The translations under genes and the position numbers were made by a program. From positions 1 through 55,952 of IMG/VR virus record IMGVR_UViG_3300020404_000088: a stretch of DNA of 55,952 bases. One strand, 5' to 3'. Origin of the DNA: a virus. Its lineage: Duplodnaviria; Caudoviricetes. Below, piece after piece: positions 1,090-22,760 of this stretch. Below the pieces are notes generated by a model that ran no database searches, was not told where the DNA came from, and saw only the letters and a list, made by a program, of their open reading frames with translations. The first letter of the stretch is position 1; each line of letters opens with the position of its first letter.

Positions 1090-1527
1090 TTATTTTAAAC
1101 TCGCAAAAACTTTAAATTGATTGTTCTCTTGTTTTTCCCAGTTAAATTCCATTTTCAATCCGCCATCTTTTTTATGAGAAACTCCATCACCGTCTTCAAT
1201 TTCTTTACCTTGTGACATAGGACCGTTTGAGTTCTCAGGTGTTTTGCCGTATCTTCCACCGAATTGAGTAACCTCAACAGTTGCGTTTCCCTTATCTGAC
1301 TCTATCTTAGGTTCAGTAAAGTTTAACCCCATAACATTTAACTTATTGTTAAGTTGTTTCATAGCAGCGTCTGGTTGCATATACTCTTGTTGAGCCATTG
1401 CACCAACAAAACCATTTAATCTTTGCATTACTCTTTCGTCATGTATGTTGAAAAGACCTAGATTGTCATCTTCAGCAGAGTTAAGAGCAACAGTATGGCT
1501 CTCATCAAATTGTTTAAAGCTTTTCAT
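1090..1527 (-). CDS. hypothetical protein, probable internal head protein
   Basis: Start re-assigned to MKSFKQFDES (ATG 1527, GGA upstream), resembling a T4 capsid-targeting sequence. Confidence 0.7.
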   Translation of the reverse strand: MKSFKQFDESHTVALNSAEDDNLGLFNIHDERVMQRLNGFVGAMAQQEYMQPDAAMKQLNNKLNVMGLNFTEPKIESDKGNATVEVTQFGGRYGKTPENSNGPMSQGKEIEDGDGVSHKKDGGLKMEFNWEKQENNQFKVFASLK

Positions 1528-4582: not shown

Positions 4583-7144
4583 TTACTTAACTAGACCTCT
4601 TGATTTTAAAACTGCTTCCTCTAGTGAACCAGGTTTTGTATCTAGGTATCTTTTTGCTTTTTCTCTTGACTCACCATACATAGCTTTCATATTAACCATT
4701 TTCTTTTCTTTTGAAATTTTCATCATAGCATTCATCATCTCAGGTGTGTCTTTAACTTTTGCCATATCAGCGCCACCGTTATCTTTGACAGATGCTTTTA
4801 CATCTGATTTCATGTACATAGCATTCATGTCTTTCATAGCGTTCATAGGTTTAGCTTTCATAGCATTCATTTGCATTGCGTTAAGAGCTTTAACTTTTGG
4901 TTCTGAGTCTGTTTCTTTAGTCTTTTCTTCTTTCTTCATGTCTTTCATGGCATTCATCTTCTTCATAGCATTCATAGAACCGTATTCTTTTTTCATAGAC
5001 TTCATTTCTTTTTTATCTTTTCTTAACATTGCGAAGTCTTTAGCATCGAGATCACCATCTTTATCTTTATCTAATTTTTTTTGACCACCTACTAAATCTT
5101 CTTTCACTTCTTTTTTATCTTTCTTCATGTCATGCATTTCTTTTTTATCTTTTTTCATGTCGTGCATTTCATCTTTAGAGTCGTCTTTCTTACCTTGTTT
5201 AGCAAGAATAGCTTTCTGCAATGCAGGTGGTAATTTCTTTTGTCCTGCAGTTAATCCCTCTGTTAAACTATCAACATAACTGAAAAATTCTTTTTGATCT
5301 TCATCTTTTAATTCTCCTAGGGAACTGATTTTGTAATGCTCCATAGCAGAGGTTAGTCTTTGTTTGTATGATTCATTCATTTTAAGTTCTCCTTTTTTGA
5401 TGAATTGCTTGTCTTCGCCTAGACCTAATTTCTTCTTGACCATATTAGTTGCTGTCGCATAACGAACAGCGTCACCATCTTTTCCATATCTTTTAATAAA
5501 GTCTTTCTTAGGTAGATCATCAGCTTTCTTATGTACTTGTTTAATTTGTGATTTAGATAAATCTGCTTCTTCTAAATCTTTCTCATCTGAAATATCTTTT
5601 GCTAATTGTTTAGCTTGTTTGTCGTGTGATTTAACAGATTTTTGAAGTTGTTTGATGATAGGTTTGATAGTCTTCTCATCATCTTTATTTAAATCTTCTT
5701 TAACAACTTTAGCACCTGAGCCGTATTGATCAACATATCTTTGTGCCTCATGTGGAGTGTTGTATCTTCCTAAAGTCATTTTGCTACCATCTTTTTTAGT
5801 GATCTGTACAGTATATGTTTCTGTCACTGGTATTTTTCTTTGTATCATTTTTGATAATGCAAGACCTGATATGAAAGGTATCTTTTTCTTTCTCACATCA
5901 TTTAAGGCATGATCTGGAAGTCTTCCTATCATGTCACTTAATTTCTTAGCGTTAGAAACTGATATAGTTTTATCTTTCATAACACCATATGCTTTTGCAA
6001 GTTTATTAAGTTGATCTGCACTAAAATAATTTTGATTTTCAATTATATTAGTTAGAGTATCTACTAATTCATTTTCCTCATCTTCTGGAAAAACAACTTG
6101 CCAATCTTCAAGTATGTCAGATATGTATTTAATCTTTGCATTTTTAATATCCATTTGAGTAAATTGATCAAGACTTTTAACAAAGTTTTTTATATTTGGT
6201 GTTAAATCTGAAGCCTTTTTAGTTGACCAAGTCTTTTTCATTCTAGCAAGTTGATCTTTTGAAAATGAACCTTTGTACATATCAGCAATACTTTCACTCA
6301 CCTCGTAGATGTAATCTTTACCAAATAGATCATCAACTATGTCTTCTTGGACACAATTAGGAACCATTTTGTCACCTTTTTTCTTTAGGCCAACTTGTTT
6401 ATATCCTACCCAACAAGCTTCTTCTAGGTCAGTTTCTTTATCTTCCTTTATCTCTACTTCGTCATTTAAAGCTAAAGGTCTATCTAAACCTCTAAAGTTA
6501 ATGTGATTATTAAAATTTAAAGTGTGTGTAGTAATTGATATGTCTTTTAATCCATCTCTCTTTAATTGAGCAGCTTTATCATCAGCAGCTTTTTGTGTTT
6601 TGTATGCAGCCGCAAATCTTTTCTTGTTTGCAGGATCAAAAAATCTAACAACAAAACCTTTTTGTATTTTTTCTTGAATTGTATTGTCTTTTTGTTCCTC
6701 AAGTGAAGGACATTGACATTCTTCACCCTCACATTTAGGGCAAGTTTCTTCTAATTTAAGAGTGCCTTTATTTTTTTGTAAGATTTTCAAATCTCTCATA
6801 GTCATGCCTGGTGCTCTTGTAGCTATAACTCTTGCTAAATCCATAGCTCTAATTTTACCAGCCTCAGTATTTCTTTCACTAGCAGGCATATCTTTTAGAA
6901 TCATTTTATATTGTTTCTCTAATTCAAACTTTCTCATATCAGGACTAATTTCATTTAAGTCTTCTTCATATTTAGGACTCACTTTTTTAGTGCCATCTGC
7001 TCTAGGTATTAAACCTTTTGCTTTTAAATGTGCCTTGTCTGTAAAACCAGCGTTGCCAGACTTAAATCTTTTCATAGCGTCAGCCGTATCAGGAGCTTTC
7101 TCTCTAACTTGTTTTAACGCTTCTGTCATGTCTATGTGCTTCAT
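4583..7144 (-). CDS. large modular Lys/Glu/Met-rich protein, probable processed internal head polyprotein
   Basis: 853 aa of short modules separated by LEE/LNE/VKE/IKE; CWVGY...VPNCV module; DKDKDGD motif; MNAM repeats. Confidence 0.65.
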   Translation of the reverse strand: MKHIDMTEALKQVREKAPDTADAMKRFKSGNAGFTDKAHLKAKGLIPRADGTKKVSPKYEEDLNEISPDMRKFELEKQYKMILKDMPASERNTEAGKIRAMDLARVIATRAPGMTMRDLKILQKNKGTLKLEETCPKCEGEECQCPSLEEQKDNTIQEKIQKGFVVRFFDPANKKRFAAAYKTQKAADDKAAQLKRDGLKDISITTHTLNFNNHINFRGLDRPLALNDEVEIKEDKETDLEEACWVGYKQVGLKKKGDKMVPNCVQEDIVDDLFGKDYIYEVSESIADMYKGSFSKDQLARMKKTWSTKKASDLTPNIKNFVKSLDQFTQMDIKNAKIKYISDILEDWQVVFPEDEENELVDTLTNIIENQNYFSADQLNKLAKAYGVMKDKTISVSNAKKLSDMIGRLPDHALNDVRKKKIPFISGLALSKMIQRKIPVTETYTVQITKKDGSKMTLGRYNTPHEAQRYVDQYGSGAKVVKEDLNKDDEKTIKPIIKQLQKSVKSHDKQAKQLAKDISDEKDLEEADLSKSQIKQVHKKADDLPKKDFIKRYGKDGDAVRYATATNMVKKKLGLGEDKQFIKKGELKMNESYKQRLTSAMEHYKISSLGELKDEDQKEFFSYVDSLTEGLTAGQKKLPPALQKAILAKQGKKDDSKDEMHDMKKDKKEMHDMKKDKKEVKEDLVGGQKKLDKDKDGDLDAKDFAMLRKDKKEMKSMKKEYGSMNAMKKMNAMKDMKKEEKTKETDSEPKVKALNAMQMNAMKAKPMNAMKDMNAMYMKSDVKASVKDNGGADMAKVKDTPEMMNAMMKISKEKKMVNMKAMYGESREKAKRYLDTKPGSLEEAVLKSRGLVK
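5108..5170 (-). repeat. 30-bp coding tandem repeat (EMHDMKKDKK x2)
   Basis: Two near-identical 30-nt units visible in DNA and protein. Confidence 0.85.
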
Positions 7145-10014
7145 TATAGTTCCTTTTTCATACGTTCAACGGCCTTTTCTAGTTCTTCCTTGTACCGTTC
7201 TTTGTATCGTTTCTTATATTTATCTATTGTTTCTTCTTCATTTCTAAATTTTTCTATATCTGCCATCTTGATAGTTTCACTATATTTTCTGAAGTTTTGT
7301 ATAGGTTGACCTGGGGTCATACTCATTGTATGCCTAGCAGAATGATCTGTGCCTAATAAGTAATATTCATCTATTTTCATCTCTTTTTCAAGTTTATCTA
7401 TCAGACTTTCTTTCTGCATTTCTTTTGTCTTTTTCTTCATCTGTTCAATATATCTTCTATATACTGCCGCTTCTGAAGTTTTACCCATCTCTTTTGCTCG
7501 TTGTTCCATTGCAACAGCAGCTTGAATCTTGTGTGCATGAGTCTTACCAGAATTCTTAATCTTATTCACACTTGCTCTCGCAGTTTCAACATCTTTGAAA
7601 CCTAGACCTTTGATAGTGCCTTTTGGATTTTCATCTGTATATAGATCACTATGTTTATCTGAACCTGCAGGTTGACCTTTCTTTCTAGGTATTCTAGGTG
7701 CTTCGTCTAAAGGTTGTAGATCATATAACCATGCCTTCTTAATCAGACCGTCATTCTCATATGATACATAATTAGAACCTCGCCTAACAACCATACCTTG
7801 TGTGCCGTCTGTATGTTCTACCATATCACCCACGTTGAATATTTTTTCTTGATGATATTCTTCTCTTAAATCATTGTTCACAAAGTCAGTAAAATTACCT
7901 ACATAACTTTCTCTAATGTCCATACCTTTCTTGACAGCGGCAAATAATGCCTTTGTATCACTATCAGAAAGATTAACAACACCTCTTTTAAAATTTCTAT
8001 AATCATTATTCTTTGCCATCTCTCTCATTTTAGAGGCAGACATTCCTGTTACACCTTCAGCATCAGGATCTCTCTCGCCAGATGAAGCAACTTTGATTGA
8101 TTTGTAATTGTATTCTTTACCATTATACTTGTCAGCGAGTGATTGAAACTCTCTTATCCTATCACTACCAGCTACCATGATTATCTCACCATACATCTTG
8201 TCGTAGAATTTTAATATCTCCATAAATGTTCTTTGTGTGCCACCTGCTGCCATAATCTTATTTCTAGGAAACATTTTTCTCATAAACTTAACTTTGGTGT
8301 TTACATCTAATGGATTCTTTCTTTTGTCTTGTGAGGCGCTAGCATAGACAACGTGATTAGCGCTGTTCTTTCTAGCTTGATTTATCACTTCTCTCATAAG
8401 TTTATCATGCCCACTAGTAGGAGGGTTGAACCTACCAAAGGCAAATATTAGTTTCTTGCTATTATCTAACGCCTCTTTAACAGCCCTCGTTTTACTTTGG
8501 GCTAATTCTTTTCTGTAAGGTCCATGACCTTTATCTTTCCAGTTTTTATCTTGAATATTTTTAGCACCGACAGATTCTACATAACCACCTTTAAGTGAAT
8601 CTATCTCATCATCATCAACTTCACCATCTGCTAATATATTTTTTAGATATTTAAAGAAAGTTATATAGTGATATTTTTCTAACATCTTATATATTACATT
8701 TTTAGGTAATCTATTTTTGATACCATATGCTCTAATCTCGTCTGGTGTCATGTCTTTATCAAACGCCGCTCTTCTTTCAGCGTCAACTGTATCACCGATG
8801 TCAACAATATCTTGTATATCTTTTTCTATTTCTTCTAACTTATTCTTAATTCTTTTTTCTAAATCTTTAATATCGCCTGATTTTAATTCTTTTAATTCAT
8901 CATAGTCGATTATATCTCTTTTTAATTCGCCTTTAATTACGTCTATCTCTTGTACTTTTTTATCAAAATCTTTAATATATAAATTAACATCAAAGGTAAA
9001 ATCTTCTGGTCTTTTTACAAACTTATTATTCGTTATATCAAATACTGCGTCTGCTTTATTATTTTGATCATCATAAGTTTTTTCATCTGTAATTAAATAA
9101 TAATTAACAGGATGTTTTGTACCTGGTATTAACTTGCCTTGTATGTTGTCTGGATTTTTAGAAGATAAAAATTGTTTTGATAATCTTAATCTCTCGTCTT
9201 CTTGTTTTTCCTCTGGCACATCAAATAAAATATTAATATCTAAATCAGCATCATTTCTATATCTCTTTGTAAGTATAGAGCCAATCAAAGTTATCTTTAA
9301 AACAGGATATTCTTTTTCAAATTCTTCAACCTGTTTATCAATCATAGATAAAACACTAGACTTAATCTTTGGATTATCTGTATCTTCATCATCAAAAACA
9401 CCAGGTGCATAAGTTCTTCTAGGTATATCGATAATGGATTCTACAAATGTTTTAAATGTTTTCATTTCTTTTACATAGTTCCCTTTATTCATAAGGGCAT
9501 ACATTTTTTCACCTAATAAATTACCAGCATCATAATCTGAAACATAATGAAATCCTGCCAATACTCTTCCATAACCACACTCATTACCTGCCTCGATTAA
9601 GTTAGCCTCGTGTTCAGGAAATTTACCTGCAACATATCTCGCAACTATTCTTGATTGAACCGCATGGCCACTAGGGTATGATGGTGTCTTGTTTGTTTTA
9701 CTTGGTGATGTATCAATCGTCTTATCTATTTCGATAGGTCTCTTTCTATCAAACTTATCTTTAAAATAATTAATAGTATCTGTTGCTCCATAAATTATGT
9801 CTTTAAATTCATCTTTGTGAAACATCATTTTATTATCGTCACAATATTTTTTAATAGCATAGAAAGGAACTTCATCATGGTCTGCGATTGATTTCTCTTG
9901 CTCTGCCGTTCTATTAGATACAATTTTCTTCACCTCTTTTGCTTCACCTATATCATCTTTAGGTGGTGCAGGTATTGTTATATCTTTATACAACTTATCT
10001 TTAAAAAATTTCAT
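7144..10014 (-). CDS. multidomain enzyme: PAP2 phosphatase + Pol-beta-type nucleotidyltransferase + cytidylyltransferase-like (HIGH class) + C-terminal modules
   Basis: RKRP/PSYPSGH/RVLAGFHYVSD (PAP2); IGS...DADLD (NTase); FGRFNPPTSGH/VAGSDR/MSASKMR (HIGH-like). Confidence 0.8.
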   Translation of the reverse strand: MKFFKDKLYKDITIPAPPKDDIGEAKEVKKIVSNRTAEQEKSIADHDEVPFYAIKKYCDDNKMMFHKDEFKDIIYGATDTINYFKDKFDRKRPIEIDKTIDTSPSKTNKTPSYPSGHAVQSRIVARYVAGKFPEHEANLIEAGNECGYGRVLAGFHYVSDYDAGNLLGEKMYALMNKGNYVKEMKTFKTFVESIIDIPRRTYAPGVFDDEDTDNPKIKSSVLSMIDKQVEEFEKEYPVLKITLIGSILTKRYRNDADLDINILFDVPEEKQEDERLRLSKQFLSSKNPDNIQGKLIPGTKHPVNYYLITDEKTYDDQNNKADAVFDITNNKFVKRPEDFTFDVNLYIKDFDKKVQEIDVIKGELKRDIIDYDELKELKSGDIKDLEKRIKNKLEEIEKDIQDIVDIGDTVDAERRAAFDKDMTPDEIRAYGIKNRLPKNVIYKMLEKYHYITFFKYLKNILADGEVDDDEIDSLKGGYVESVGAKNIQDKNWKDKGHGPYRKELAQSKTRAVKEALDNSKKLIFAFGRFNPPTSGHDKLMREVINQARKNSANHVVYASASQDKRKNPLDVNTKVKFMRKMFPRNKIMAAGGTQRTFMEILKFYDKMYGEIIMVAGSDRIREFQSLADKYNGKEYNYKSIKVASSGERDPDAEGVTGMSASKMREMAKNNDYRNFKRGVVNLSDSDTKALFAAVKKGMDIRESYVGNFTDFVNNDLREEYHQEKIFNVGDMVEHTDGTQGMVVRRGSNYVSYENDGLIKKAWLYDLQPLDEAPRIPRKKGQPAGSDKHSDLYTDENPKGTIKGLGFKDVETARASVNKIKNSGKTHAHKIQAAVAMEQRAKEMGKTSEAAVYRRYIEQMKKKTKEMQKESLIDKLEKEMKIDEYYLLGTDHSARHTMSMTPGQPIQNFRKYSETIKMADIEKFRNEEETIDKYKKRYKERYKEELEKAVERMKKEL

Positions 10015-10268
10015 TATTCTCCACCTCCATTACCATTTGATCCATTACCATTAGTGCCATTACCATTGCCGTTAGTACCATTATCGTTTGTATTGTTATC
10101 ACTTGATTGTTGATCATTTTGTCCGTTGCCATTTCTACCACCAAAGTAAGGATAATATCTAGTCACGCCAGTAGGCACACAGACTTGTAACTTATTATCA
10201 AATCTATATCCTGGTGGACACTTTTTCTGTTTTTGTGCCTGCAACATAAACTGTTTAAATTTATACAT
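10014..10268 (-). CDS. small protein with Cys pair and Asn/Gly-rich tail
   Basis: CPPGYRFDNKLQVC followed by NG repeats; abuts both neighbours. Confidence 0.7.
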   Translation of the reverse strand: MYKFKQFMLQAQKQKKCPPGYRFDNKLQVCVPTGVTRYYPYFGGRNGNGQNDQQSSDNNTNDNGTNGNGNGTNGNGSNGNGGGE

Positions 10269-10269
10269 C

Positions 10270-11502
10270 TTATCCTTTTACCCAATCTTTTGCTACATTA
10301 AAGTTTGCCTGACTAAAGACTAATCTATCAACTAGTTTGACAGCGTTACCTTTATTTATTGCAACATAACCCTCAGGATTTGTTACCTTGTAGCCATTTT
10401 TAGTTCTCATAAAAGAACCTATACTTTGTATCTTATTTAATTTACTTAACAACATACTCTTTGCTGTCTGTAACGTGATGTAAGAAGCAATAGTAAAATA
10501 AAGACCTTGTCTGTTAGGTCTTAATATCTTCATACCTGCTTCTAGTATCTCTTTGTATTTTTGTTTTGCTTTATCAGTTTTCTTACTGTCTATCTCTTTC
10601 TTTATTTTCTCTATGAAATATACCTCAAAGTTATTTGTTAATGCTTTTGCATTACCAATCTTTGATCCTGCTCTAATATATGTATTGAAAAATGTTTTAA
10701 GTTGAACACCTAGAGATAAAGGACCTTTATCTTTTTTAATTTTATCTATGAAAGCACCTGCCTTATAGATAGAACCCTCTGCCATATTTAATATAGCGTC
10801 AAATCTTTTTTCTTCTCCTGAATTAAAACCAGGATCTTCTGCCTGTTTGTATCTTGCGTCATCAAAGAATACGTTTTTGTTTTGCCTTAATCCACCAACA
10901 CTTGCACCAAAACTTGCTTTCATAGTTTTGATCGTTTTACCTGAATATGATGTGTGGAAAATTATACCGATCTTTGCCTTGTTTATTCTATCATACATAG
11001 AACTGCCAAAGAATCCACTCTTGACAACTGGCACAGCATAAGTTATTGTGTTAGGTGTAAATACAATCGACTTCTCTCCATTAACATTAGCCATCTTCTT
11101 ATCATCACTTGTAAACAATAAGTCACCTTGTATTACGCCTTTGATACCTAACGAAGGCAAATACTTTAATGCAACAGCAAGTTTATCCGCTAATGCGCCG
11201 CCGTGGTTTCTGGATATATCCGACACGGTGTAGTTTATTTTAGGCGTTGCATTAAATATTGATTTCGTTCCTACGAAAAATCTACCATTCTCTGGATTGA
11301 TACCACAGAATATAGCAGGTGCACCGTCCCATTTCACTGAAACAGTTGAACCTCCCTTGCCTCCCTGAAGCATTTTTTTGATAGACTTTAAAAACTCAAT
11401 CGAAGTTTTTGCACCGCTTGTCCCATTATTAATAATTTCGTCTTCTAAATGTTCAAGGTGTGTATTTCGGTCTTCATTTAAGACTTTTTTAAACCCTTGC
11501 AT
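10270..11502 (-). CDS. conserved T4-like protein with ATP-dependent ligase-type motif (putative RNA-ligase-like nucleotidyltransferase)
   Basis: NTHLEHLED N-terminus; KWDG (motif I-like), QGDLLF (III-like), EGYV (IV-like), VKLV (V-like). Confidence 0.65.
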   Translation of the reverse strand: MQGFKKVLNEDRNTHLEHLEDEIINNGTSGAKTSIEFLKSIKKMLQGGKGGSTVSVKWDGAPAIFCGINPENGRFFVGTKSIFNATPKINYTVSDISRNHGGALADKLAVALKYLPSLGIKGVIQGDLLFTSDDKKMANVNGEKSIVFTPNTITYAVPVVKSGFFGSSMYDRINKAKIGIIFHTSYSGKTIKTMKASFGASVGGLRQNKNVFFDDARYKQAEDPGFNSGEEKRFDAILNMAEGSIYKAGAFIDKIKKDKGPLSLGVQLKTFFNTYIRAGSKIGNAKALTNNFEVYFIEKIKKEIDSKKTDKAKQKYKEILEAGMKILRPNRQGLYFTIASYITLQTAKSMLLSKLNKIQSIGSFMRTKNGYKVTNPEGYVAINKGNAVKLVDRLVFSQANFNVAKDWVKG

Positions 11503-11533: not shown

Positions 11534-11569
11534 TATTTATATTATAACACACTTTAGACAGGCTGTCAA
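11534..11569 (-). promoter_or_regulatory. overlapping sigma70-type and late promoters
   Basis: TTGACA(11564-69)-N17-TATAAT(11541-46) with TG extension; TATAAATA at 11534-41. Confidence 0.8.
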
Positions 11570-11575
11570 GTGATA

Positions 11576-12835
11576 TTATTTGGCAATTACAAATTTACCA
11601 GATTTTGGTGCTCTAGAGGTTACATAAGTAAATATACTTCTAACAAATTCAGTTTTTACTTCTTGTTTTTCTTTTGCTAGCCAACCTGATATGACAGGCA
11701 TAACTCTATTAATAATAGTTGTAGCACTTAATTCACCTCTTCTTTTATCGTAAGCTTCTTTACCATACTTATTTCTAAATTCTGCTTTTGTTTTCTCGTG
11801 TATCTTATTTTGTGCTTTAAATAGATCATTTCCTATCTTATATTGTTTTAAAAATTCTTCACCAACTTTTGAATTATGTTGACCCACTAACCTAGAAAAT
11901 GCGTCAAATGATGTAAGAGAACCACCTCTTGCTTGAGCACCTTTATATGTAAAGTCAACTTTCCATTGACCTGCTGAGGGTTCATGTCTTATCTGTATCT
12001 TACCTTTATCACCACCTTTATCGTCAACTATTCCTAATAACATATCTCTTTGTGGATCTTTTTCTGTGTACCAGACTTTACCTGCTTTCATTTCAACTTT
12101 ATATATATCTTTATATTTTACATTTTTTAATAATTCTGTTTTTGATTTTTCATCAAAGTTTACTGGTTGAAGTTGAACCTCTTTAATTTGTTTTTTTAAA
12201 GATAAAGGAAATAAATCACCTGATTTCATATTTTCAGTAATTAGTATGTTTAATCTATCTATATTATATGAGCCTTGATTTGATTGTGCAAATGATAACT
12301 CTTTATTAACATTTCTTTTTGCAACTTCACTAGCAAAATACATATCAGCAGGACTCCATTTATTAATATCACCAAACGATGGTTGTCCTAGAGTAGTCCA
12401 GTATTTTGTATTCTTATTTGCTATCTTAAATAACTTCTCTATATTACCCATGATAGGACCATCACCTCTTTTGTATAGTAAGTTATTAATTCCTGGTGTC
12501 TGTATTCTATTAAATTTTGTATATCCTAACTTTGACATTAAAGTTGTAATATCTTGAATTAATTTCAAAGCAATTAAAACAGAGGATCGATACCAACCAT
12601 TTTTATCACTAGGTCTTTTTAAAAAATCTTCTATACCTATTAATGAAGCACCTGGAGTATCAATAGCTTTATATGCTTGATCTATTAATTTTCTATTATC
12701 AGATTCAAATTCATTATAGTTAGTATATTTTGATAAATCTAAAACTGATTTTGCCTTTGATACACCTGCAATGTCGGCTATAGCACAAAATAGTGCTTGT
12801 GCTGATTCTCCGAATTTTGTATCTATTGCTGACAT
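11576..12835 (-). CDS. hypothetical protein, possible PD-(D/E)xK-type nuclease
   Basis: Start moved to ATG 12835 to avoid the tRNA; KWSPADMY...PLSLKK motif. Confidence 0.55.
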   Translation of the reverse strand: MSAIDTKFGESAQALFCAIADIAGVSKAKSVLDLSKYTNYNEFESDNRKLIDQAYKAIDTPGASLIGIEDFLKRPSDKNGWYRSSVLIALKLIQDITTLMSKLGYTKFNRIQTPGINNLLYKRGDGPIMGNIEKLFKIANKNTKYWTTLGQPSFGDINKWSPADMYFASEVAKRNVNKELSFAQSNQGSYNIDRLNILITENMKSGDLFPLSLKKQIKEVQLQPVNFDEKSKTELLKNVKYKDIYKVEMKAGKVWYTEKDPQRDMLLGIVDDKGGDKGKIQIRHEPSAGQWKVDFTYKGAQARGGSLTSFDAFSRLVGQHNSKVGEEFLKQYKIGNDLFKAQNKIHEKTKAEFRNKYGKEAYDKRRGELSATTIINRVMPVISGWLAKEKQEVKTEFVRSIFTYVTSRAPKSGKFVIAK

Positions 12836-12840
12836 ATCAT

Positions 12841-12848
12841 TATTTATA
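12841..12848 (-). promoter_or_regulatory. T4-type late promoter
   Basis: TATAAATA immediately after the tRNA CCA and 5 nt before an ATG. Confidence 0.7.
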
Positions 12849-12850
12849 TA

Positions 12851-12927
<77 letters not shown>

Positions 12928-18509: not shown

Positions 18510-21005
18510 TTAAAAAAAATCGTCTAAGTTTGCCTTTCTTTCAAAATTCCATCCGATTGCATTGACAATAAATCTTAATGGTTCTAAAAACGATTTAGTA
18601 AACATTTCATCATGGTTAATATATTGATGTAGTTTAAATTCTTTTGGTAACTTACTAGTAAAAGATATGACATTTTCTCTTATAGGATTTGGTTCTTTTA
18701 ATGTGATAAATTTAATCTTATCGCCATCTTGTATTGTTTCATATTTTCTTAATTTGTTTTGTTTCAATAAGTTATTATAAAGTAAAGCACCTCTTACATG
18801 AATAGGAGTTGACTTTTGATATATGTCTTTTGTTGAAGAATACTTTTTAAGATTATTACAACTTCTAGGATATGCAATATCTTCAGGTGGCAACTTCTTA
18901 AAATGTTTTCTAAAATCTTCTATAAACTGAATTAATGCTGATTCATCTTTTGTCATAATCACTTTTAATGCTTCTTTAATCTTTATACGACAAGGTGCAG
19001 GAGTTGAAGATTTAACAGCTTCAATACCCATGATCTTTAGTTTAGGTTCTTTCAGATCAAGACCTTCTTCATTAAACACATTTAGGATATATCTTTTCTT
19101 TGCAGTCCATATGCCTTTGTTGGCGATTACTTCTCGTTTCATAATCATTTTCTGATCATAAGCATTTACATACTTTGCTAGTTTAGCAAAACTAGAATCA
19201 ATAAATGGTTGTAGTTTTTCTTCACAAAACTTATCTAATACTTTTACGATCTTTCTATGATCAGATTTATCTTTAAATATCTTGTTAACCATTTCACCTA
19301 GTTTGATGTAGATAGAATCTGTATCAGACGCAACAACATAGGTAACATTTTTAGTACTTAGTAGTTTGTTTAGATAATCATTTACATCACGTTCAATCCA
19401 TCTGATAGTCAATTGACCAGCCATAGTAATACCTTCAGCGTGTCTTACATCAAAGTATCTAAAGTATTGATTACCGATAGCACCATAGGCACTATTCAAG
19501 GCAATCTTTCTTGCAAGTTGAATATTATAATTAGAAGATATCTCATTCTTTAATCTTTCATCACCAGTTTCTTGATACAACGCCTTTGCTTTTGCCATCT
19601 TGTTCTTATACATGACACGTTCTTTGTAAAACTTATCCATAAGTTCAGGTAAGAAACCCTGCTTGTCTGTCCTAAATTGAGCACCATTGGGAGTGATAGT
19701 TCTCGTATCTAGGTCAGACAAATCAGATTTTTGATTTAACATATTCTCAACACTCACACGATTAGGATCATGACCAATCATAGTTTCAGGAGAGATATTG
19801 TATTGCATAATTAAATGCGGATACAAACTGTTTAAATCGAAACTCACTATCCAGTCGTGAAAACCTACAACAGGATCTTTTACATAGGCACCTTCATAAC
19901 CTCTTGATTGTTTAGACTCTACAACGGCAGGTGCAACAATATTTTTAGATTTTAAATGATTGAATATAATTGTATCCCACATTCTTACTTGACCAAAACA
20001 ATCTTGATAATTAACTTTTGCTTCATAGGCCATTGTCAAATGCAACTCAATCAGTTTCATCTTGTCTTCTAGTTTATCAACAAGTTCTACATCTTGGATA
20101 TTATATTCTATAAACTGTTGATAATCTTTTGTATAAAATTCTTTAAATGTATCATAAGGATTTTCATTTTTGTTTTCACCTAGTTCTACTTCACCTATAT
20201 AATCTAGTTTATAGCTCTCTCGTCTAACAAATGTATGTTTACGATATAGATCAAGATAATCCAATACAGTAACGCCCATGATATCCCAATAGTTTTGTTC
20301 TTTGTTAAAACCTTTTGCTGTTATTCTAGCACTTTGTTGTGACACTACGTTCCAAGGACTAAATTGTAAAATAAATTCATCACCCATTAATCTTCTAAAT
20401 CTATTCATCAAGAAAGGCATATCGAAAAATTTAACATTCCAACCTGTAACAATATCAGGATTATATTCTAACCAAAATTCTAAAAATTTTTGAATCAATT
20501 CTCTTTCAGTAGGACATTTAATATATCTAACATCTGGCCTATCATTCACAAAGTCATTCATACCGAAGACTATGATCTTCTTTGTTGTATGTTCTTTTAC
20601 TGTTATTGATATAAGAGGTTCAATTGCCTCATCTGAATTAGGAAAACCATTCTCACTTTCACACTCTATATCGATTGTAAGTATTCTTATTTGTTTGATA
20701 TCCCAATCTATCTTGCCAGGAAATTCATCTGCAATAAAAGGATATTGATATCTCGTATTACCATAATATTGAAAACCACTTACATCTTTATATTGATCAA
20801 TCCATTTCTTAGCCTCAGGCATACTTTCGAAAGTAACCTTGCCAACATTAGTGCCGTCAAGTGTTTTGTACTTTGATTCTTTACCAGATGGAATAAACAA
20901 AGATGGTTTATAATTAATTCTAAACTTCTTATGACTACCATCGTGGTTCACACCACGAACTAATAGCCTGCCACGATACGGCAATACCGAAGTATAGAAT
21001 TTCAT
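18510..21005 (-). CDS. gp43: family B DNA polymerase
   Basis: DIECE exo I, SFDLNSLYP, KIALNSAYG, SDTDS, KKRY. Confidence 0.98.
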   Translation of the reverse strand: MKFYTSVLPYRGRLLVRGVNHDGSHKKFRINYKPSLFIPSGKESKYKTLDGTNVGKVTFESMPEAKKWIDQYKDVSGFQYYGNTRYQYPFIADEFPGKIDWDIKQIRILTIDIECESENGFPNSDEAIEPLISITVKEHTTKKIIVFGMNDFVNDRPDVRYIKCPTERELIQKFLEFWLEYNPDIVTGWNVKFFDMPFLMNRFRRLMGDEFILQFSPWNVVSQQSARITAKGFNKEQNYWDIMGVTVLDYLDLYRKHTFVRRESYKLDYIGEVELGENKNENPYDTFKEFYTKDYQQFIEYNIQDVELVDKLEDKMKLIELHLTMAYEAKVNYQDCFGQVRMWDTIIFNHLKSKNIVAPAVVESKQSRGYEGAYVKDPVVGFHDWIVSFDLNSLYPHLIMQYNISPETMIGHDPNRVSVENMLNQKSDLSDLDTRTITPNGAQFRTDKQGFLPELMDKFYKERVMYKNKMAKAKALYQETGDERLKNEISSNYNIQLARKIALNSAYGAIGNQYFRYFDVRHAEGITMAGQLTIRWIERDVNDYLNKLLSTKNVTYVVASDTDSIYIKLGEMVNKIFKDKSDHRKIVKVLDKFCEEKLQPFIDSSFAKLAKYVNAYDQKMIMKREVIANKGIWTAKKRYILNVFNEEGLDLKEPKLKIMGIEAVKSSTPAPCRIKIKEALKVIMTKDESALIQFIEDFRKHFKKLPPEDIAYPRSCNNLKKYSSTKDIYQKSTPIHVRGALLYNNLLKQNKLRKYETIQDGDKIKFITLKEPNPIRENVISFTSKLPKEFKLHQYINHDEMFTKSFLEPLRFIVNAIGWNFERKANLDDFF

Positions 21006-21296: not shown

Positions 21297-22760
21297 CTAT
21301 TCATCTTTTTGTAATGGTAAATTAACACCTCGTGTATCATTGCCATCGCTTCTTTCAATCCAAGAAGAAAGAACAAACTTTCTATTTGGATTTACATTGA
21401 CTTTAAATCTAGTCAATAAATCTCTATTGATTAAAAATGTACTTCTTGAATCTTTTGTCGTCAAGCCAATTGGCACATCTGTATAAAATTTATTATTGAA
21501 AGTTATATCTACAAGAACAATCGGTCTCTCATCTACTTGATCCATTCGAGTTGCCTCAGAGATACCTTCTAGTTTACTTGTAAATTTCTTACCATCTTTT
21601 TCCCATTTGACAGTTTTACCTGATACATCTATTTTGTCAACACAAAACATTGACGCCTGAGTACCGTTACCTGTATCAAACTTTGCTCTGACAGGTCCAT
21701 AACCATCGATAACAAGTCTTTCGTGAAACCCTGCCTCTTTTGTGAAAGAGTGTTTTCTATGTACGTCTTGTGTAAGATAGTTAAATAATTCTTTTACTAC
21801 ATTTTCAGGTGTAGTTTTTCCCACATATGATCTATCCTTTAAATCAGTATTATATAATGAGAAGTTTGAACCAATCCCAGGTGATCCATTACACTCTAAC
21901 ACATAATAGTTGCCATTCACTATCGCATGGTCGACACCTACCATAAACGCACCAGTTGATCTGGCAGCGTCTAATACTACTTTACGTTCATCATCTGAAA
22001 GTTTATAAGGTTCAGTAGTTGCCTCTCTATGTCTATTAGACCTAAAATCTTTCTTAGCACTTATTCTTTTTGTTGAAGCTAATACTCTACCATCAACAAC
22101 TATTGTACGAACATCAAAGTCAAACTTCATAAATTCTTGTAATAGTAAAGCAGCACCAAACTTCCATAATGATTGTGCAACTGAGACCATACTTTTTTCA
22201 GACTCGACAACTGATACACCAATACCTTGTGTACCTGTTAGTGTTTTTATAATGACAGGATACTTGCCACCTAGTTTTTCGTGGGCATGAATTAATCCTT
22301 TTTCATTTGAAATTAAAGCAGTTCTTGGTGTAGGTATATTATCTCTCTCAAAAGAAATGTATGCTGACATCTTGTTATCACAAGTAAGCATACCGTTTCT
22401 AGTGTTTATCATAAATGCACCAGCATTTTCGAATGTAGATAATAACGCTAAACCAGTTTCGTCTTCAAGAACACCTGCTCTTGTAAAACAGATTGTCTTT
22501 GAAAGATCAAATTCTATTTCAGTATCTTCGCCATCAATATTTGATACAAGCAAAGTACCTTTCTCTAAATCATTTTTTGATACCCATGCCTCAGACGTAT
22601 TAATAATATGACAAGGAATATTTCGACTTTTACATTCCTTAGCTATCATATTACTAACAACAGACTTACTGTCAGCATTGATTTTAGTTAAGATAGCAAC
22701 TTGTATATTACTTCTCTCAACTTTCTCAGATATGAATTCTTTAAACTTGGGCGCCTTCAT
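21297..22760 (-). CDS. rimK: RimK-family ATP-grasp ligase fused to retropepsin-like protease domain
   Basis: IPTPRT, YPVIIKTLTGTQGIGV, LLQEF, DFRSN, GVD, LECNGSPG; C-terminal AKFDTGN...RP...LINRD. Confidence 0.85.
   Translation of the reverse strand: MKAPKFKEFISEKVERSNIQVAILTKINADSKSVVSNMIAKECKSRNIPCHIINTSEAWVSKNDLEKGTLLVSNIDGEDTEIEFDLSKTICFTRAGVLEDETGLALLSTFENAGAFMINTRNGMLTCDNKMSAYISFERDNIPTPRTALISNEKGLIHAHEKLGGKYPVIIKTLTGTQGIGVSVVESEKSMVSVAQSLWKFGAALLLQEFMKFDFDVRTIVVDGRVLASTKRISAKKDFRSNRHREATTEPYKLSDDERKVVLDAARSTGAFMVGVDHAIVNGNYYVLECNGSPGIGSNFSLYNTDLKDRSYVGKTTPENVVKELFNYLTQDVHRKHSFTKEAGFHERLVIDGYGPVRAKFDTGNGTQASMFCVDKIDVSGKTVKWEKDGKKFTSKLEGISEATRMDQVDERPIVLVDITFNNKFYTDVPIGLTTKDSRSTFLINRDLLTRFKVNVNPNRKFVLSSWIERSDGNDTRGVNLPLQKDE

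What the first reader, a model, noticed from the sequence alone, without database searches (positions are those of the whole stretch)
7144..10014. Unusual triple-enzyme fusion: PAP2 phosphatase, Pol-beta nucleotidyltransferase, HIGH-class nucleotidyltransferase
Catalytic motifs of three unrelated folds look intact in one ORF (PAP2 ~10014-9466; NTase ~9465-8580; cytidylyltransferase-like ~8465-7910), followed by IFNVGD and HSDLYTDENPKG modules. Junctions contain VKE/VES/IRE/LDE, and the second domain starts with its own MKTFKTFVES leader. This implies fusion of formerly separate packaged enzymes into a cleavable polyprotein. I recall the cytidylyltransferase as a stand-alone gene in cyanomyophages.
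Basis: partly seen in the sequence, partly recalled or inferred. Interest (0 to 1): 0.75.

Follow-up and report, generated by a model that had tools for sequence, protein, structure and literature searches.

The report
Three-enzyme fusion protein in marine phage
A marine T4-like phage encodes one real 956-residue protein that joins an acid-phosphatase-type domain, a small nucleotidyltransferase and an NMN-adenylyltransferase-like enzyme, built by shuffling of modules that may be loaded into the phage head.

Summary
The 956-aa ORF (7144-10014, minus strand) is real. All three Pfam domains pass their curated cut-offs and their catalytic motifs are intact. 45 of 119 listed related protein clusters from other assemblies cover at least 99% of it, and laid contigs show no indel. 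It is a rare variant. The common form is a two-enzyme NTase + HIGH-nucleotidyltransferase protein that starts at Met184 (MKTFKTFVES). A [84-aa gene + PAP2] cassette sits in front of that Met here, and one contig from an RNA library lacks the cassette. The "cytidylyltransferase" folds most like NMN/NaMN adenylyltransferases and PPAT. The NTase is a minimal-NTase core plus its own helical domain, a family with no solved full-length relative. The locus downstream of the ligase-like DUF6267 gene shuffles modules freely, including a ~100-aa module (HSDLYTDENPKG) that stays 75-92% identical.

The "packaged" idea has indirect support: leaders resembling the T4 capsid-targeting sequence, a late promoter, and a cyanophage homologue in a published virion proteome. 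The "cleavable polyprotein" idea has none, because (L/I/V)xE sites occur at chance frequency. Substrates remain unknown. This scan flagged the same kind of locus before on other DNA.

The parts
7144..10014 (-). Whole ORF, 956 aa (P0001): PAP2 - NTase - HIGH nucleotidyltransferase - small beta domain - Ct1 - Ct2
9466..10014 (-). Residues 1-183: soluble PAP2 domain of class A acid-phosphatase type, with all three catalytic motifs
   Evidence: Pfam PF01569, 32 bits. PDB acid phosphatases 1iw8/1d2t at E 1.5e-8 with aligned K..RP, PSGH and R..H..D. Motifs kept in 20 of 20 PAP2 ORFs of related loci
9436..9465 (-). Residues 184-193, MKTFKTFVES: relic start and leader of the NTase-HIGH protein, like the T4 capsid-targeting sequence (aromatic at positions 4 and 7)
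   Evidence: No good SD sequence 5-10 nt upstream
8560..9465 (-). Residues 184-485: Pol-beta-superfamily NTase module, a minimal-NTase core (222-330) plus a helical bundle (342-485)
8467..8559 (-). Residues 486-516: basic linker, predicted disordered
   Evidence: pLDDT <50 at the end of model 1 and the start of model 2
7912..8466 (-). Residues 517-701: HIGH-signature (TSGH ... MSASKMR) Rossmann nucleotidyltransferase, NMNAT/PPAT-like
7705..7911 (-). Residues 702-770: two short helices and a small five-stranded beta domain (IFNVGD...AWLYD), always found with the HIGH domain
   Evidence: AF2 strands at model residues 227-264, pLDDT ~85. Conserved in the S-SZBM1 homologue
7390..7704 (-). Residues 771-875, module Ct1: a conserved but predicted-disordered stretch (PRIPRKKGQPAGSDKHSDLYTDENPKG) followed by three helices; pI 9.9
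   Evidence: 75-92% aa identity in 67 tblastn rows, but only 46-71% identical codons at conserved residues. Found in many positions and as 106-109-aa ORFs. AF2. pI
7147..7389 (-). Residues 876-956, module Ct2 (GTD..MTPGQPI..F..Y ... ETIDKY)
10014..10268 (-). 84-aa gene, present or absent together with PAP2 as one cassette
10270..11502 (-). DUF6267, ligase-like (KWDG...), the conserved upstream neighbour. Some phages fuse it to the HIGH domain (phrog_455)
   Evidence: Present in 65 of 78 loci
11534..11569 (-). TTGACA-17-TATAAT (12 of 12, with TG) overlapping a T4-type late promoter motif TATAAATA, ahead of the gene run

Best explanation
This is a genuine single protein, not a mis-assembly.

Origin. 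In one lineage of uncultured marine T4-like (Kyanoviridae-like) myophages, a cassette made of an 84-aa gene and a soluble PAP2 phosphatase lies between the ligase-like DUF6267 gene and a widespread two-enzyme protein. The PAP2 reading frame is joined to the old start codon of that protein (Met184). The two-enzyme protein is a minimal-type nucleotidyltransferase fused to an NMNAT/PPAT-like HIGH nucleotidyltransferase.

Shown here: the fusion, its polymorphism, conservation of all three catalytic centres, the fold assignments, and the module shuffling in this locus.

Inferred chemistry.
- The HIGH domain transfers AMP from ATP onto the phosphate of a small phosphorylated molecule, with NMN or NaMN the best guess.
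- The PAP2 domain hydrolyses or transfers a phosphomonoester on a related nucleotide.
- The NTase performs a second nucleotidyl transfer on an unknown acceptor.
Repeated independent fusions suggest the three act on one pathway.

Inferred cell biology. The family is probably loaded into the prohead through a leader like the T4 capsid-targeting sequence and delivered with the DNA, so it would act at the very start of infection. In this PAP2-fused version the leader is internal, so whether it is still packaged, or cut there, is open.

My odds: real fusion >0.95; all domains active ~0.7; family virion-associated ~0.5; NMN/NaMN as substrate ~0.3.
For: Fusion and polymorphism.
- NTase-HIGH fusion in 74 of 78 loci; in the other 4 the ORF is cut by the contig end.
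- PAP2 in 3 of those 78 loci, and in 7 of the first 80.

Catalytic motifs conserved: PAP2 20 of 20; NTase 21 of 23, the 2 misses being 5'-cut ORFs; HIGH 74 and 72 of 75.

Folds.

Functional link between PAP2 and the HIGH enzyme: three architectures, N-terminal fusion of two PAP2 subtypes, HIGH...Ct1...PAP2 in one ORF, and an adjacent PAP2-Ct1 gene.

Leader.
- M-[KR]-x-[FY]-x-x-[FY]-[LIVM]-x-E occurs at 18 of 486 distinct coding-strand ORF starts and 0 of 593 opposite-strand ORFs.
- 13 of the 14 'internal' matches lie within 17 residues of the called start; only the PAP2/NTase junction is truly internal.
- The T4 CTS is MKTYQEFIAE (passage of PMC8442874). Residues 4 and 7 are reported to matter for targeting and 8 and 10 for processing (passage of PMC9026906).

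Head genes and promoter: prohead protease, scaffold, major head and portal genes are in the window, with the late-promoter motif upstream.

Virion proteomes.
- S-SZBM1_140 was detected (passages and table of PMC9146016). It is 37% identical over 270 aa to residues 520-763 and starts MRFRQFIIEA.
- S-CREM2 ORF154 was detected, and the authors write of 'frequent detection' of these enzymes in cyanophage virion proteomes (section 19 of PMC10665884).
Against: - The protein's own N-terminus, MKFFKDKLYK, lacks the aromatic at position 7 and the Glu at position 10.
- 0 of 28 distinct HIGH-first ORFs meet the strict leader pattern. They have L or I where the pattern needs an aromatic at position 7.
- Only 12 of 58 stand-alone NTases meet the strict pattern.
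- The DUF6267 homologues of HTVC008M, S-PRM1 and S-SZBM1 have no such leader.
- The authors of PMC10665884 caution that abundant enzymes may co-purify with virions.
- [LIV]xE is not enriched.
- The HIGH family has no PDB relative by sequence profile at E<=1. It scores 18 bits against a 397-bit cut-off for NadM. PPAT ties with NMNAT within about 1.5 Z units.
- No NAPRTase/NAMPT-family match in the window, which is only 31% of a genome.
- Model 2 is of middling confidence (pLDDT 75, pTM 0.51).
Confidence: 0.5

Rival explanations
1. Cytoplasmic enzyme only. The protein is an ordinary early or middle nucleotide-metabolism (auxiliary) enzyme that works inside the infected cell and is never packaged. 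The MKxFKxF leader is just a common N-terminal helix or a start-region preference of these AT-rich phages.
For: - The gene lies among replication and nucleotide genes: helicase, DNA polymerase, NT5C nucleotidase.
- A perfect sigma-70-type promoter lies upstream.
- Its own N-terminus is not leader-like.
- The leader is absent from several orthologues.
- The authors caution about co-purification.
Against: - The leader is confined to N-termini and shared by unrelated families: DUF6267, adenylate kinase, NTase, Ct1 and others.
- It matches the T4 CTS at positions 4, 7, 8 and 10.
- Two virion proteomes detected the homologue.
- A late-promoter motif is present.
Confidence: 0.3
2. Nucleic-acid end-healing and sealing kit. 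Together with the DUF6267 ligase-like enzyme, PAP2 removes a 3' or 2',3'-cyclic phosphate, the Pol-beta NTase restores missing 3' nucleotides, and the ligase seals. This would be analogous to T4 Pnkp + Rnl1 repair of tRNAs cut by host anticodon nucleases.
For: - Constant adjacency to, and occasional fusion with, a KxDG ligase-like protein.
- Kinases in the same slot in relatives: a Zeta/AAA_33-type kinase in HTVC008M.
- One NTase homologue carries weak Tpt1/PARP-like hits, below the Pfam cut-offs.
Against: - The HIGH domain resembles small-molecule adenylyltransferases, not RNA enzymes.
- The leader-bearing kinase in L014 is an adenylate kinase (E 1e-43), a small-molecule enzyme.
- PAP2's nearest relatives act on nucleotides, not polynucleotides (this substrate knowledge is recalled, not tested).
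- The NTase shows no match to CCA-adding enzymes beyond the shared core.
Confidence: 0.15
3. Cleavable polyprotein. The prohead protease cuts at the domain junctions (VKE|M184 or FVE|S, LDE|A772, IDE|Y884) and releases separate PAP2, NTase-HIGH and small basic Ct1/Ct2 products inside the head.
For: - Three module boundaries defined by BLAST coincide with [LIV]xE at 181-183, 769-771 and 881-883.
- The junctions are predicted disordered.
- Ct1 also exists as a leader-bearing 106-109-aa ORF, MKTFKQFIE|APRIP.
- [FY]xx[FY][LIVM]x?E occurs twice against 0.27 expected, P=0.03.
Against: - The tripeptide is at chance frequency overall.
- The residue before Ct1 varies: LDE, KNE, YKE, YGE and, where Glu771 itself is replaced, EDV, EQS, ESS, AKN, EET.
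- The second [FY]xx[FY] hit lies inside a conserved helix.
- The module boundaries were set partly after seeing the motifs.
- No proteomic data for any relative.
Confidence: 0.15
4. Assembly chimera or missed frameshift.
For: None found.
Against. Also, three catalytic motif sets are conserved in frame in all related PAP2 fusions.
Confidence: 0.01

Closest known systems
Cyanomyophage / pelagimyophage 'cytidyltransferase' (phrog_3041, phrog_395; e.g. S-SZBM1_140, HTVC008M gp130)
   Same: Homologous HIGH domain plus small beta domain (37-47% identity). Same synteny after DUF6267 and the primase-helicase.
   Different: Those proteins lack PAP2 and the NTase. No cultured phage record matched residues 1-500 beyond two weak PAP2-like hits.
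NMN/NaMN adenylyltransferases (NadD, archaeal NMNAT, NadM, NadR) and PPAT (CoaD)
   Different: 8-17% identity. Far below the NCBIfam cut-offs. No profile hit in PDB. Carries an extra beta domain and tail modules. Substrate untested.
Class A non-specific acid phosphatases (PhoN/PhoC, Escherichia blattae enzyme 1d2t/1iw8)
   Same: All catalytic motifs align.
   Different: No signal-peptide-like hydrophobic N-terminus (sequence). About 180 aa, fused to cytoplasmic-type enzymes.
Minimal nucleotidyltransferases (MNT/MntA antitoxins, AF0614 1ylq, HI0073)
   Different: Has its own ~145-residue helical domain with no specific match. No HEPN partner seen. The family of 738 representative clusters has no Pfam model of its own: only the generic NTP_transf_2 model hits the core.
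T4 internal proteins with the capsid-targeting sequence (IPI-III; MKTYQEFIAE)
   Same: Relatives in this locus start M-K-T-F-K-Q-F-[IL]-x-E, with aromatic residues at positions 4 and 7, I/L at 8 and E at 10. Diverse cargo shares only the leader. A T4-type prohead protease is encoded.
   Different: In this protein the leader is internal (residues 184-193) and one residue short (FVES). Packaging and cleavage are not shown for any member.

Membership tests
PAP2 superfamily / class A acid phosphatase | Motifs KxxxxxxRP, PSGH, SRxxxxxHxxxD | tested here: met
   K85-x6-R92P, P114SGH, (G)R150-x5-H156-x3-D160, aligned to 1iw8/1d2t. G stands in place of the S before the R.
PAP2 superfamily / class A acid phosphatase | Pfam PF01569 score above the gathering cut-off | tested here: met
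   32 bits against 27.2
PAP2 superfamily / class A acid phosphatase | Secreted, periplasmic enzyme with a signal peptide (class A NSAPs; recalled) | tested here: not met
   The N-terminus MKFFKDKLYKDITIPAPPKDD has no hydrophobic core. So it is PAP2-fold and NSAP-like in chemistry, but not a classical secreted class A enzyme.
Pol-beta-superfamily nucleotidyltransferase (minimal NTase type) | hG[GS]-x9-13-Dh[DE]h motif | tested here: met
   G245S-x10-D257LD259. G65, D77 and D79 are invariant or >=90% conserved in 59 sequences.
Pol-beta-superfamily nucleotidyltransferase (minimal NTase type) | NTase core fold | tested here: met
Pol-beta-superfamily nucleotidyltransferase (minimal NTase type) | Third catalytic carboxylate | tested here: inconclusive
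   No third acidic column reached >=90% between the DxD motif and the helical domain. H121 (protein residue 301) and D178 are conserved.
MNT-HEPN toxin-antitoxin (MntA) | Adjacent or fused HEPN partner with an Rx4-6H motif | tested here: not met
   No HEPN hit in Pfam for the protein or its neighbours. MntA model at 18 bits against a cut-off of 60.
HIGH-signature nucleotidyltransferase superfamily | (H/T)xGH and ISxxxxR-type motifs on a Rossmann fold | tested here: met
NMN/NaMN adenylyltransferase (NadD/NadM/NadR equivalogs) | Score above the NCBIfam equivalog cut-off | tested here: not met
   NF003786 at 18.3 bits against 397; TIGR00482 at 15.6 against 112. It works like these enzymes by fold but is not a family member.
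NMN/NaMN adenylyltransferase (NadD/NadM/NadR equivalogs) | Forms NAD or NaAD from ATP plus NMN or NaMN | not testable with these tools
   Needs an enzyme assay.
Glycerol-3-phosphate / choline-phosphate cytidylyltransferase (the database label) | Closest fold and CTP specificity | tested here: inconclusive
T4-type capsid-targeted internal protein | N-terminal ~10-aa CTS: aromatic at positions 4 and 7, I/L at 8, E at 10 | tested here: not met
   The protein's own N-terminus MKFFKDKLYK has F4 and L8 but K7 and K10. A CTS-like copy is internal at 184-193, with F4, F7, V8 and E9. Relatives without PAP2 carry it at the N-terminus.
T4-type capsid-targeted internal protein | T4-type prohead protease and scaffold core encoded by the phage | tested here: met
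   phrog_207 protease at E 8e-80, phrog_237 scaffold, phrog_138 major head protein, phrog_213 portal
T4-type capsid-targeted internal protein | Present in virions and cut after the leader Glu | not testable with these tools
   Only homologue data from papers: S-SZBM1_140 and S-CREM2 ORF154 detected in virion preparations. No cleavage data.

The most novel reading that the evidence does not exclude
The protein is cargo of a T4-CTS-type head-loading system that marine T4-like phages use to inject whole enzymes. The three enzymes would form a self-contained nucleotide cycle delivered with the DNA. For example, PAP2 could use the pyrophosphate released by the NMNAT-like domain to phosphorylate a riboside, so that riboside + ATP gives a dinucleotide such as NAD. 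This would restore a cofactor that host defences deplete, before any phage gene is expressed. The extremely conserved, disordered-plus-helical Ct1 module would be the shared handle that keeps such cargo with the DNA or the ejection path.
Probability: 0.2. Interest if true: 0.85.

Novelty: new variant of a known kind. Interest (0 to 1): 0.6.

Why it matters
All three enzyme folds are known, and the HIGH enzyme is a long-annotated but never characterised near-core gene of cyanophages and pelagiphages. The new points are these.

1. The 'cytidyltransferase' looks like an NMNAT/PPAT-type adenylyltransferase.
2. It is commonly fused to an uncharacterised NTase family with 738 representative clusters.
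3. PAP2 phosphatases have joined it repeatedly, which argues for one shared pathway and gives a concrete substrate screen.
4. The locus behaves like the T4 internal-protein locus, with diverse shuffled cargo behind a common leader.

If packaging is confirmed, abundant ocean phages would be injecting metabolic enzymes. That bears on the open questions of what cyanophage virion-associated enzymes do and how phages counter nucleotide- or NAD-depleting defences.

Tried and rejected
- Sequence searches of PDB found nothing for the NTase profile beyond marginal MNT hits, nothing for the HIGH/Ct1 profile and nothing for DUF6267.
- Ct1 has no Pfam family at E<=5. The ESM Atlas returned only unnamed viral clusters at 0.89 and a DUF5771 lead at 0.81, below the trust level. 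DUF5824, which I had recalled, is a different tail module found in other relatives.
- Internal start at 9465: the only SD-like element (AAGGGA) lies ~14 nt upstream, and a 9-of-12 promoter-like match there is at background level. This is neither supported nor excluded.
- A NAPRTase/NAMPT gene was not found in the window, but the contig is 31% of a genome, so this says little.
- RNA runs X15 and X17 hold contigs along the ORF. Contigs cannot show transcription, and DNA may be present in such libraries, so I claim no expression. A zero-depth bin in X17 is not a finding.
- Literature: 'cytitidyltransferase' 0 papers; 'DUF6267' 0; PAP2 + nucleotidyltransferase + myovirus 0; 'capsid targeting sequence' + cyanophage gave only a T4 review. 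My statement that this fusion and the CTS-like leaders of marine phages are not in print rests on these searches of the held library alone.
- Supplements were closed. The S-CREM2 proteome table and the accession numbers behind 'frequent detection' were not seen.
Full report
**1. Observation.** The ORF listing and translate give one open frame, 7144..10014 on the minus strand, of 956 aa. GGAG lies 6 nt ahead of the ATG, which overlaps the stop of an 84-aa gene.
- Pfam finds three unrelated catalytic domains, each above its gathering score: PAP2 at 81-169, NTP_transf_2 at 225-280 and CTP_transf_like at 525-628.
- The catalytic signatures are all present: K85-x6-RP, PSGH, R150-x5-H-x3-D; GS-x10-DLD; TSGH and MSASKMR.

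**2. Is the ORF real?** The window is an IMG/VR viral contig of 55,952 bp, estimated 31% complete.
- The exact protein is on record for 12 contigs.
- Of the 119 other clusters listed by the search for homologous proteins, 45 cover >=99% of the query (923-967 aa, 69-92% identity). Three more carry PAP2 with 85-91% coverage. The remainder, mostly 750-774 aa at 84-93% identity, lack the first ~183 residues.
- Laid contigs of two DNA runs include an exact 864-nt piece spanning 9400-10263, across the PAP2/NTase junction, and none of the four runs listed an indel. X2 and X3 gave identical pieces and may be one data set.

**3. Context.** The contig carries T4-like replication genes: DNA polymerase at 18510-21005 and a DnaB-like helicase. 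It also carries a T4-type head module: portal, prohead protease, scaffold and major head protein.
- The gene order is helicase ... 435-aa gene, DUF6267 (10270-11502; Pfam E 2e-123, with a KWDG ligase-like motif), 84-aa gene, the 956-aa gene, an 853-aa low-complexity gene, a 205-aa gene and an NT5C nucleotidase.
- The order matches HTVC008M, S-PRM1 and S-SZBM1, all Kyanoviridae, where a DUF6267 homologue precedes the annotated 'cytidyltransferase'.
- A perfect TTGACA-17-TATAAT overlaps a TATAAATA motif just upstream of DUF6267. No convincing terminator follows on the coding strand until ~2650.
- All 12 TATAAATA copies in the window lie on the coding strand, although their total number is what chance gives.

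**4. Architecture survey.** In 80 IMG/VR loci found with the whole protein:
- 7 have PAP2-NTase-HIGH in one ORF (L002, L003, L012, L014, L015, L016, L019);
- 16 have NTase-HIGH without PAP2 (L021 and L054 are 5'-cut, so PAP2 cannot be excluded there);
- 3 have HIGH...Ct1...PAP2 in one ORF;
- 10 have a separate PAP2+Ct1 ORF;
- 14 have Ct1 as a 106-109-aa ORF;
- 1 has Ct1 fused in front of DUF6267.

In 78 further loci found with the NTase profile:
- 74 NTase ORFs continue into the HIGH domain, and the other 4 are cut by the contig end;
- only 3 carry PAP2, two of them on contigs already counted;
- DUF6267 is present in 65 of the 78.

So the two-enzyme fusion is the common form and the triple fusion a rare variant. 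In cultured phages only the HIGH part is found: 562 records match, in the 40 listed rows only residues ~435-772, and 0 cover >=80%. Residues 1-500 give two weak PAP2-like hits.

**5. How the fusion arose.**
- In IMG/VR loci the PAP2-less relatives start at the position of Met184, with MKTFKTFVES-type leaders.
- The PAP2 of L002/3/14/15/16/19 is only 35-39% identical to this one, while their NTase is 70-77% identical. The PAP2 of the separate PAP2-Ct1 genes is 47-56% identical. Different PAP2 alleles have therefore been joined to the same partner.
- Those other fusions also keep a Met and a leader remnant at the joint...ITMRKTFKESIID.
- One contig in RNA-library run X15 joins position 10270, the last base of the DUF6267 stop, through 22 other letters to 9442. 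Read on the coding strand this gives TAATG and an ORF starting MKTFRQLKES.
- The [84-aa gene + PAP2] unit is thus a presence/absence cassette in natural populations.

**6. The domains.**

*PAP2.* The nearest solved proteins are class A acid phosphatases (1iw8, 1d2t, PhoN; E 1.5e-8 to 2e-6), with all catalytic residues aligned. No signal peptide is visible.

*NTase.*
- A full HMMER scan of 1.84 billion representatives found 738 clusters at E<=0.001, and 113 at E<=1e-30. Most are stand-alone at 285-300 aa. Some are fused to other unknown regions, to DUF5662, or, weakly, to a PARP/Tpt1-like part.

*HIGH domain.*
- The model of residues 505-875 has pLDDT 75.
- By sequence it is remote from all of them.
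- A five-stranded small beta domain (IFNVGD...) always follows it.

*Motif conservation in relatives.* PAP2 20 of 20; NTase 21 of 23, both misses being 5'-cut ORFs; HIGH 74 of 75 and 72 of 75, two of the three ISxxxxR misses (L012, L019) being 3'-cut ORFs.

**7. Ct1.** Residues 771-875 are 75-92% identical in proteins whose HIGH domains are only ~40% identical. Yet only 46-71% of the codons for identical residues are the same, in the 54 full-length ungapped tblastn rows of 67.
- This is purifying selection on the protein, not recent transfer.
- The most conserved stretch (PRIPRKKGQPAGSDKHSDLYTDENPKG) is predicted disordered and is followed by three helices.
- The module is basic, pI 9.9.
- It sits before or after PAP2, after HIGH, before DUF6267, or alone behind a leader: MKTFKQFIE|APRIP.
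- I could not name its function.

**8. Packaging and cleavage.**
- The T4 capsid-targeting sequence is MKTYQEFIAE (passage in PMC8442874). A review reports that residues 4 and 7 matter for targeting and 8 and 10 for processing (passage in PMC9026906).
- In the related loci the pattern M-x-x-[FY]-x-x-[FY]-[LIVM]-x?-E occurs at 18 of 486 distinct coding-strand ORF starts and at 0 of 593 opposite-strand ORFs.
- Of 14 'internal' matches, 13 lie within 17 residues of my ORF caller's start. Only the PAP2/NTase junction is truly internal.
- Carriers include DUF6267, an adenylate kinase (Pfam E 1e-43), the NTase, Ct1 and several unknown proteins.
- Published virion proteomes list the homologue. S-SZBM1_140 appears in the text and table of PMC9146016. 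I confirmed the homology at 37% identity, E 5e-46, and its start is MRFRQFIIEA. S-CREM2 ORF154 appears in section 19 of PMC10665884, whose authors also warn of co-purification.
- The leaderless S-SZBM1 DUF6267 homologue is not among the detected proteins in the passages I read.

Evidence against:
- This protein's own N-terminus is a poor match.
- 0 of 28 HIGH-first ORFs and only 12 of 58 stand-alone NTases meet the strict pattern.
- HTVC008M and S-PRM1 orthologues lack the leader.
- For cleavage, [LIV]xE is at chance level, 15 against 13.7 +/- 3.2, and the residues before Ct1 vary.

I therefore rate family-level packaging at about even odds and processing of this protein as unshown.

**9. Mechanism.** The best-supported reading is a nucleotide-handling multi-enzyme.
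- The HIGH domain adenylylates a small phosphorylated acceptor, an inference from its fold.
- PAP2 hydrolyses or transfers a phosphomonoester, an inference from its intact NSAP-type site.
- The NTase adds a nucleotide to an unknown acceptor.
- Recurrent fusion of PAP2 with the HIGH protein in three architectures argues that they serve one pathway.
- Whether that pathway is cofactor (NAD-type) synthesis, by-product recycling for the neighbouring ligase-like enzyme, or nucleic-acid end repair cannot be decided here. The adenylate kinase in the same slot in L014 leans towards small-molecule chemistry.

**10. Relation to earlier notes of this scan.** The same kind of locus was flagged on other genomes and once followed up. 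I treated these notes as leads and tested the leader pattern, the promoter and the architecture on my own loci.

Noticed in passing
window 10270-11502 (-): DUF6267 protein with KWDG, QGD, EGYV and VKLV motifs in ligase order. It has no PDB sequence relative even at E<=10, is constant in the locus, and is fused to the HIGH domain in phrog_455. It may be an unrecognised ligase of these phages; that they lack a T4 gp30-type ligase is recalled, not tested.
   Followed up: partly
window 7390-7704 (-); L044:4977-5297 and many other loci: The Ct1 module is 75-92% identical across otherwise ~40%-identical proteins, with many synonymous differences. Its most conserved part is predicted disordered. It is mobile between proteins and also stands alone behind a CTS-like leader.
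   Followed up: partly
window 9443-10269 (-): A contig in RNA-library run X15 lacks the 84-aa gene and PAP2. It joins the DUF6267 stop to an MKTFRQLKES start through a TAATG overlap, which points to a natural cassette polymorphism.
   Followed up: yes
L014:3641-4222: An adenylate kinase (Pfam ADK, E 1e-43) with a CTS-like N-terminus (MKFFERFIRE) lies between DUF6267 and the PAP2 fusion. HTVC008M has a Zeta/AAA_33-type kinase in the same slot.
   Followed up: partly
window 4583-7144 (-): The 853-aa low-complexity protein shares only a CW.GYK..G.KKKG.K.VPNC mini-module with S-SZBM1_139 (E 1e-6). That protein was also detected in the S-SZBM1 virion proteome.
   Followed up: partly
window 12851-12927 (-): tRNA-Asp (GTC) overlaps the first ~11 codons of the 435-aa ORF called at 11576-12883, and a TATAAATA sits at 12841-12848. 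The true start of that gene is probably further downstream.
   Followed up: no
window, whole: All 12 TATAAATA motifs lie on the coding (minus) strand, several just upstream of head and tail genes, although the total count equals the chance expectation.
   Followed up: partly
window 21297-22760 (-) and 1090-1527 (-): A RimK-like protein (MKAPKFKEFISE) and a 145-aa protein (MKSFKQFDES) also start with leader-like N-termini.
   Followed up: no
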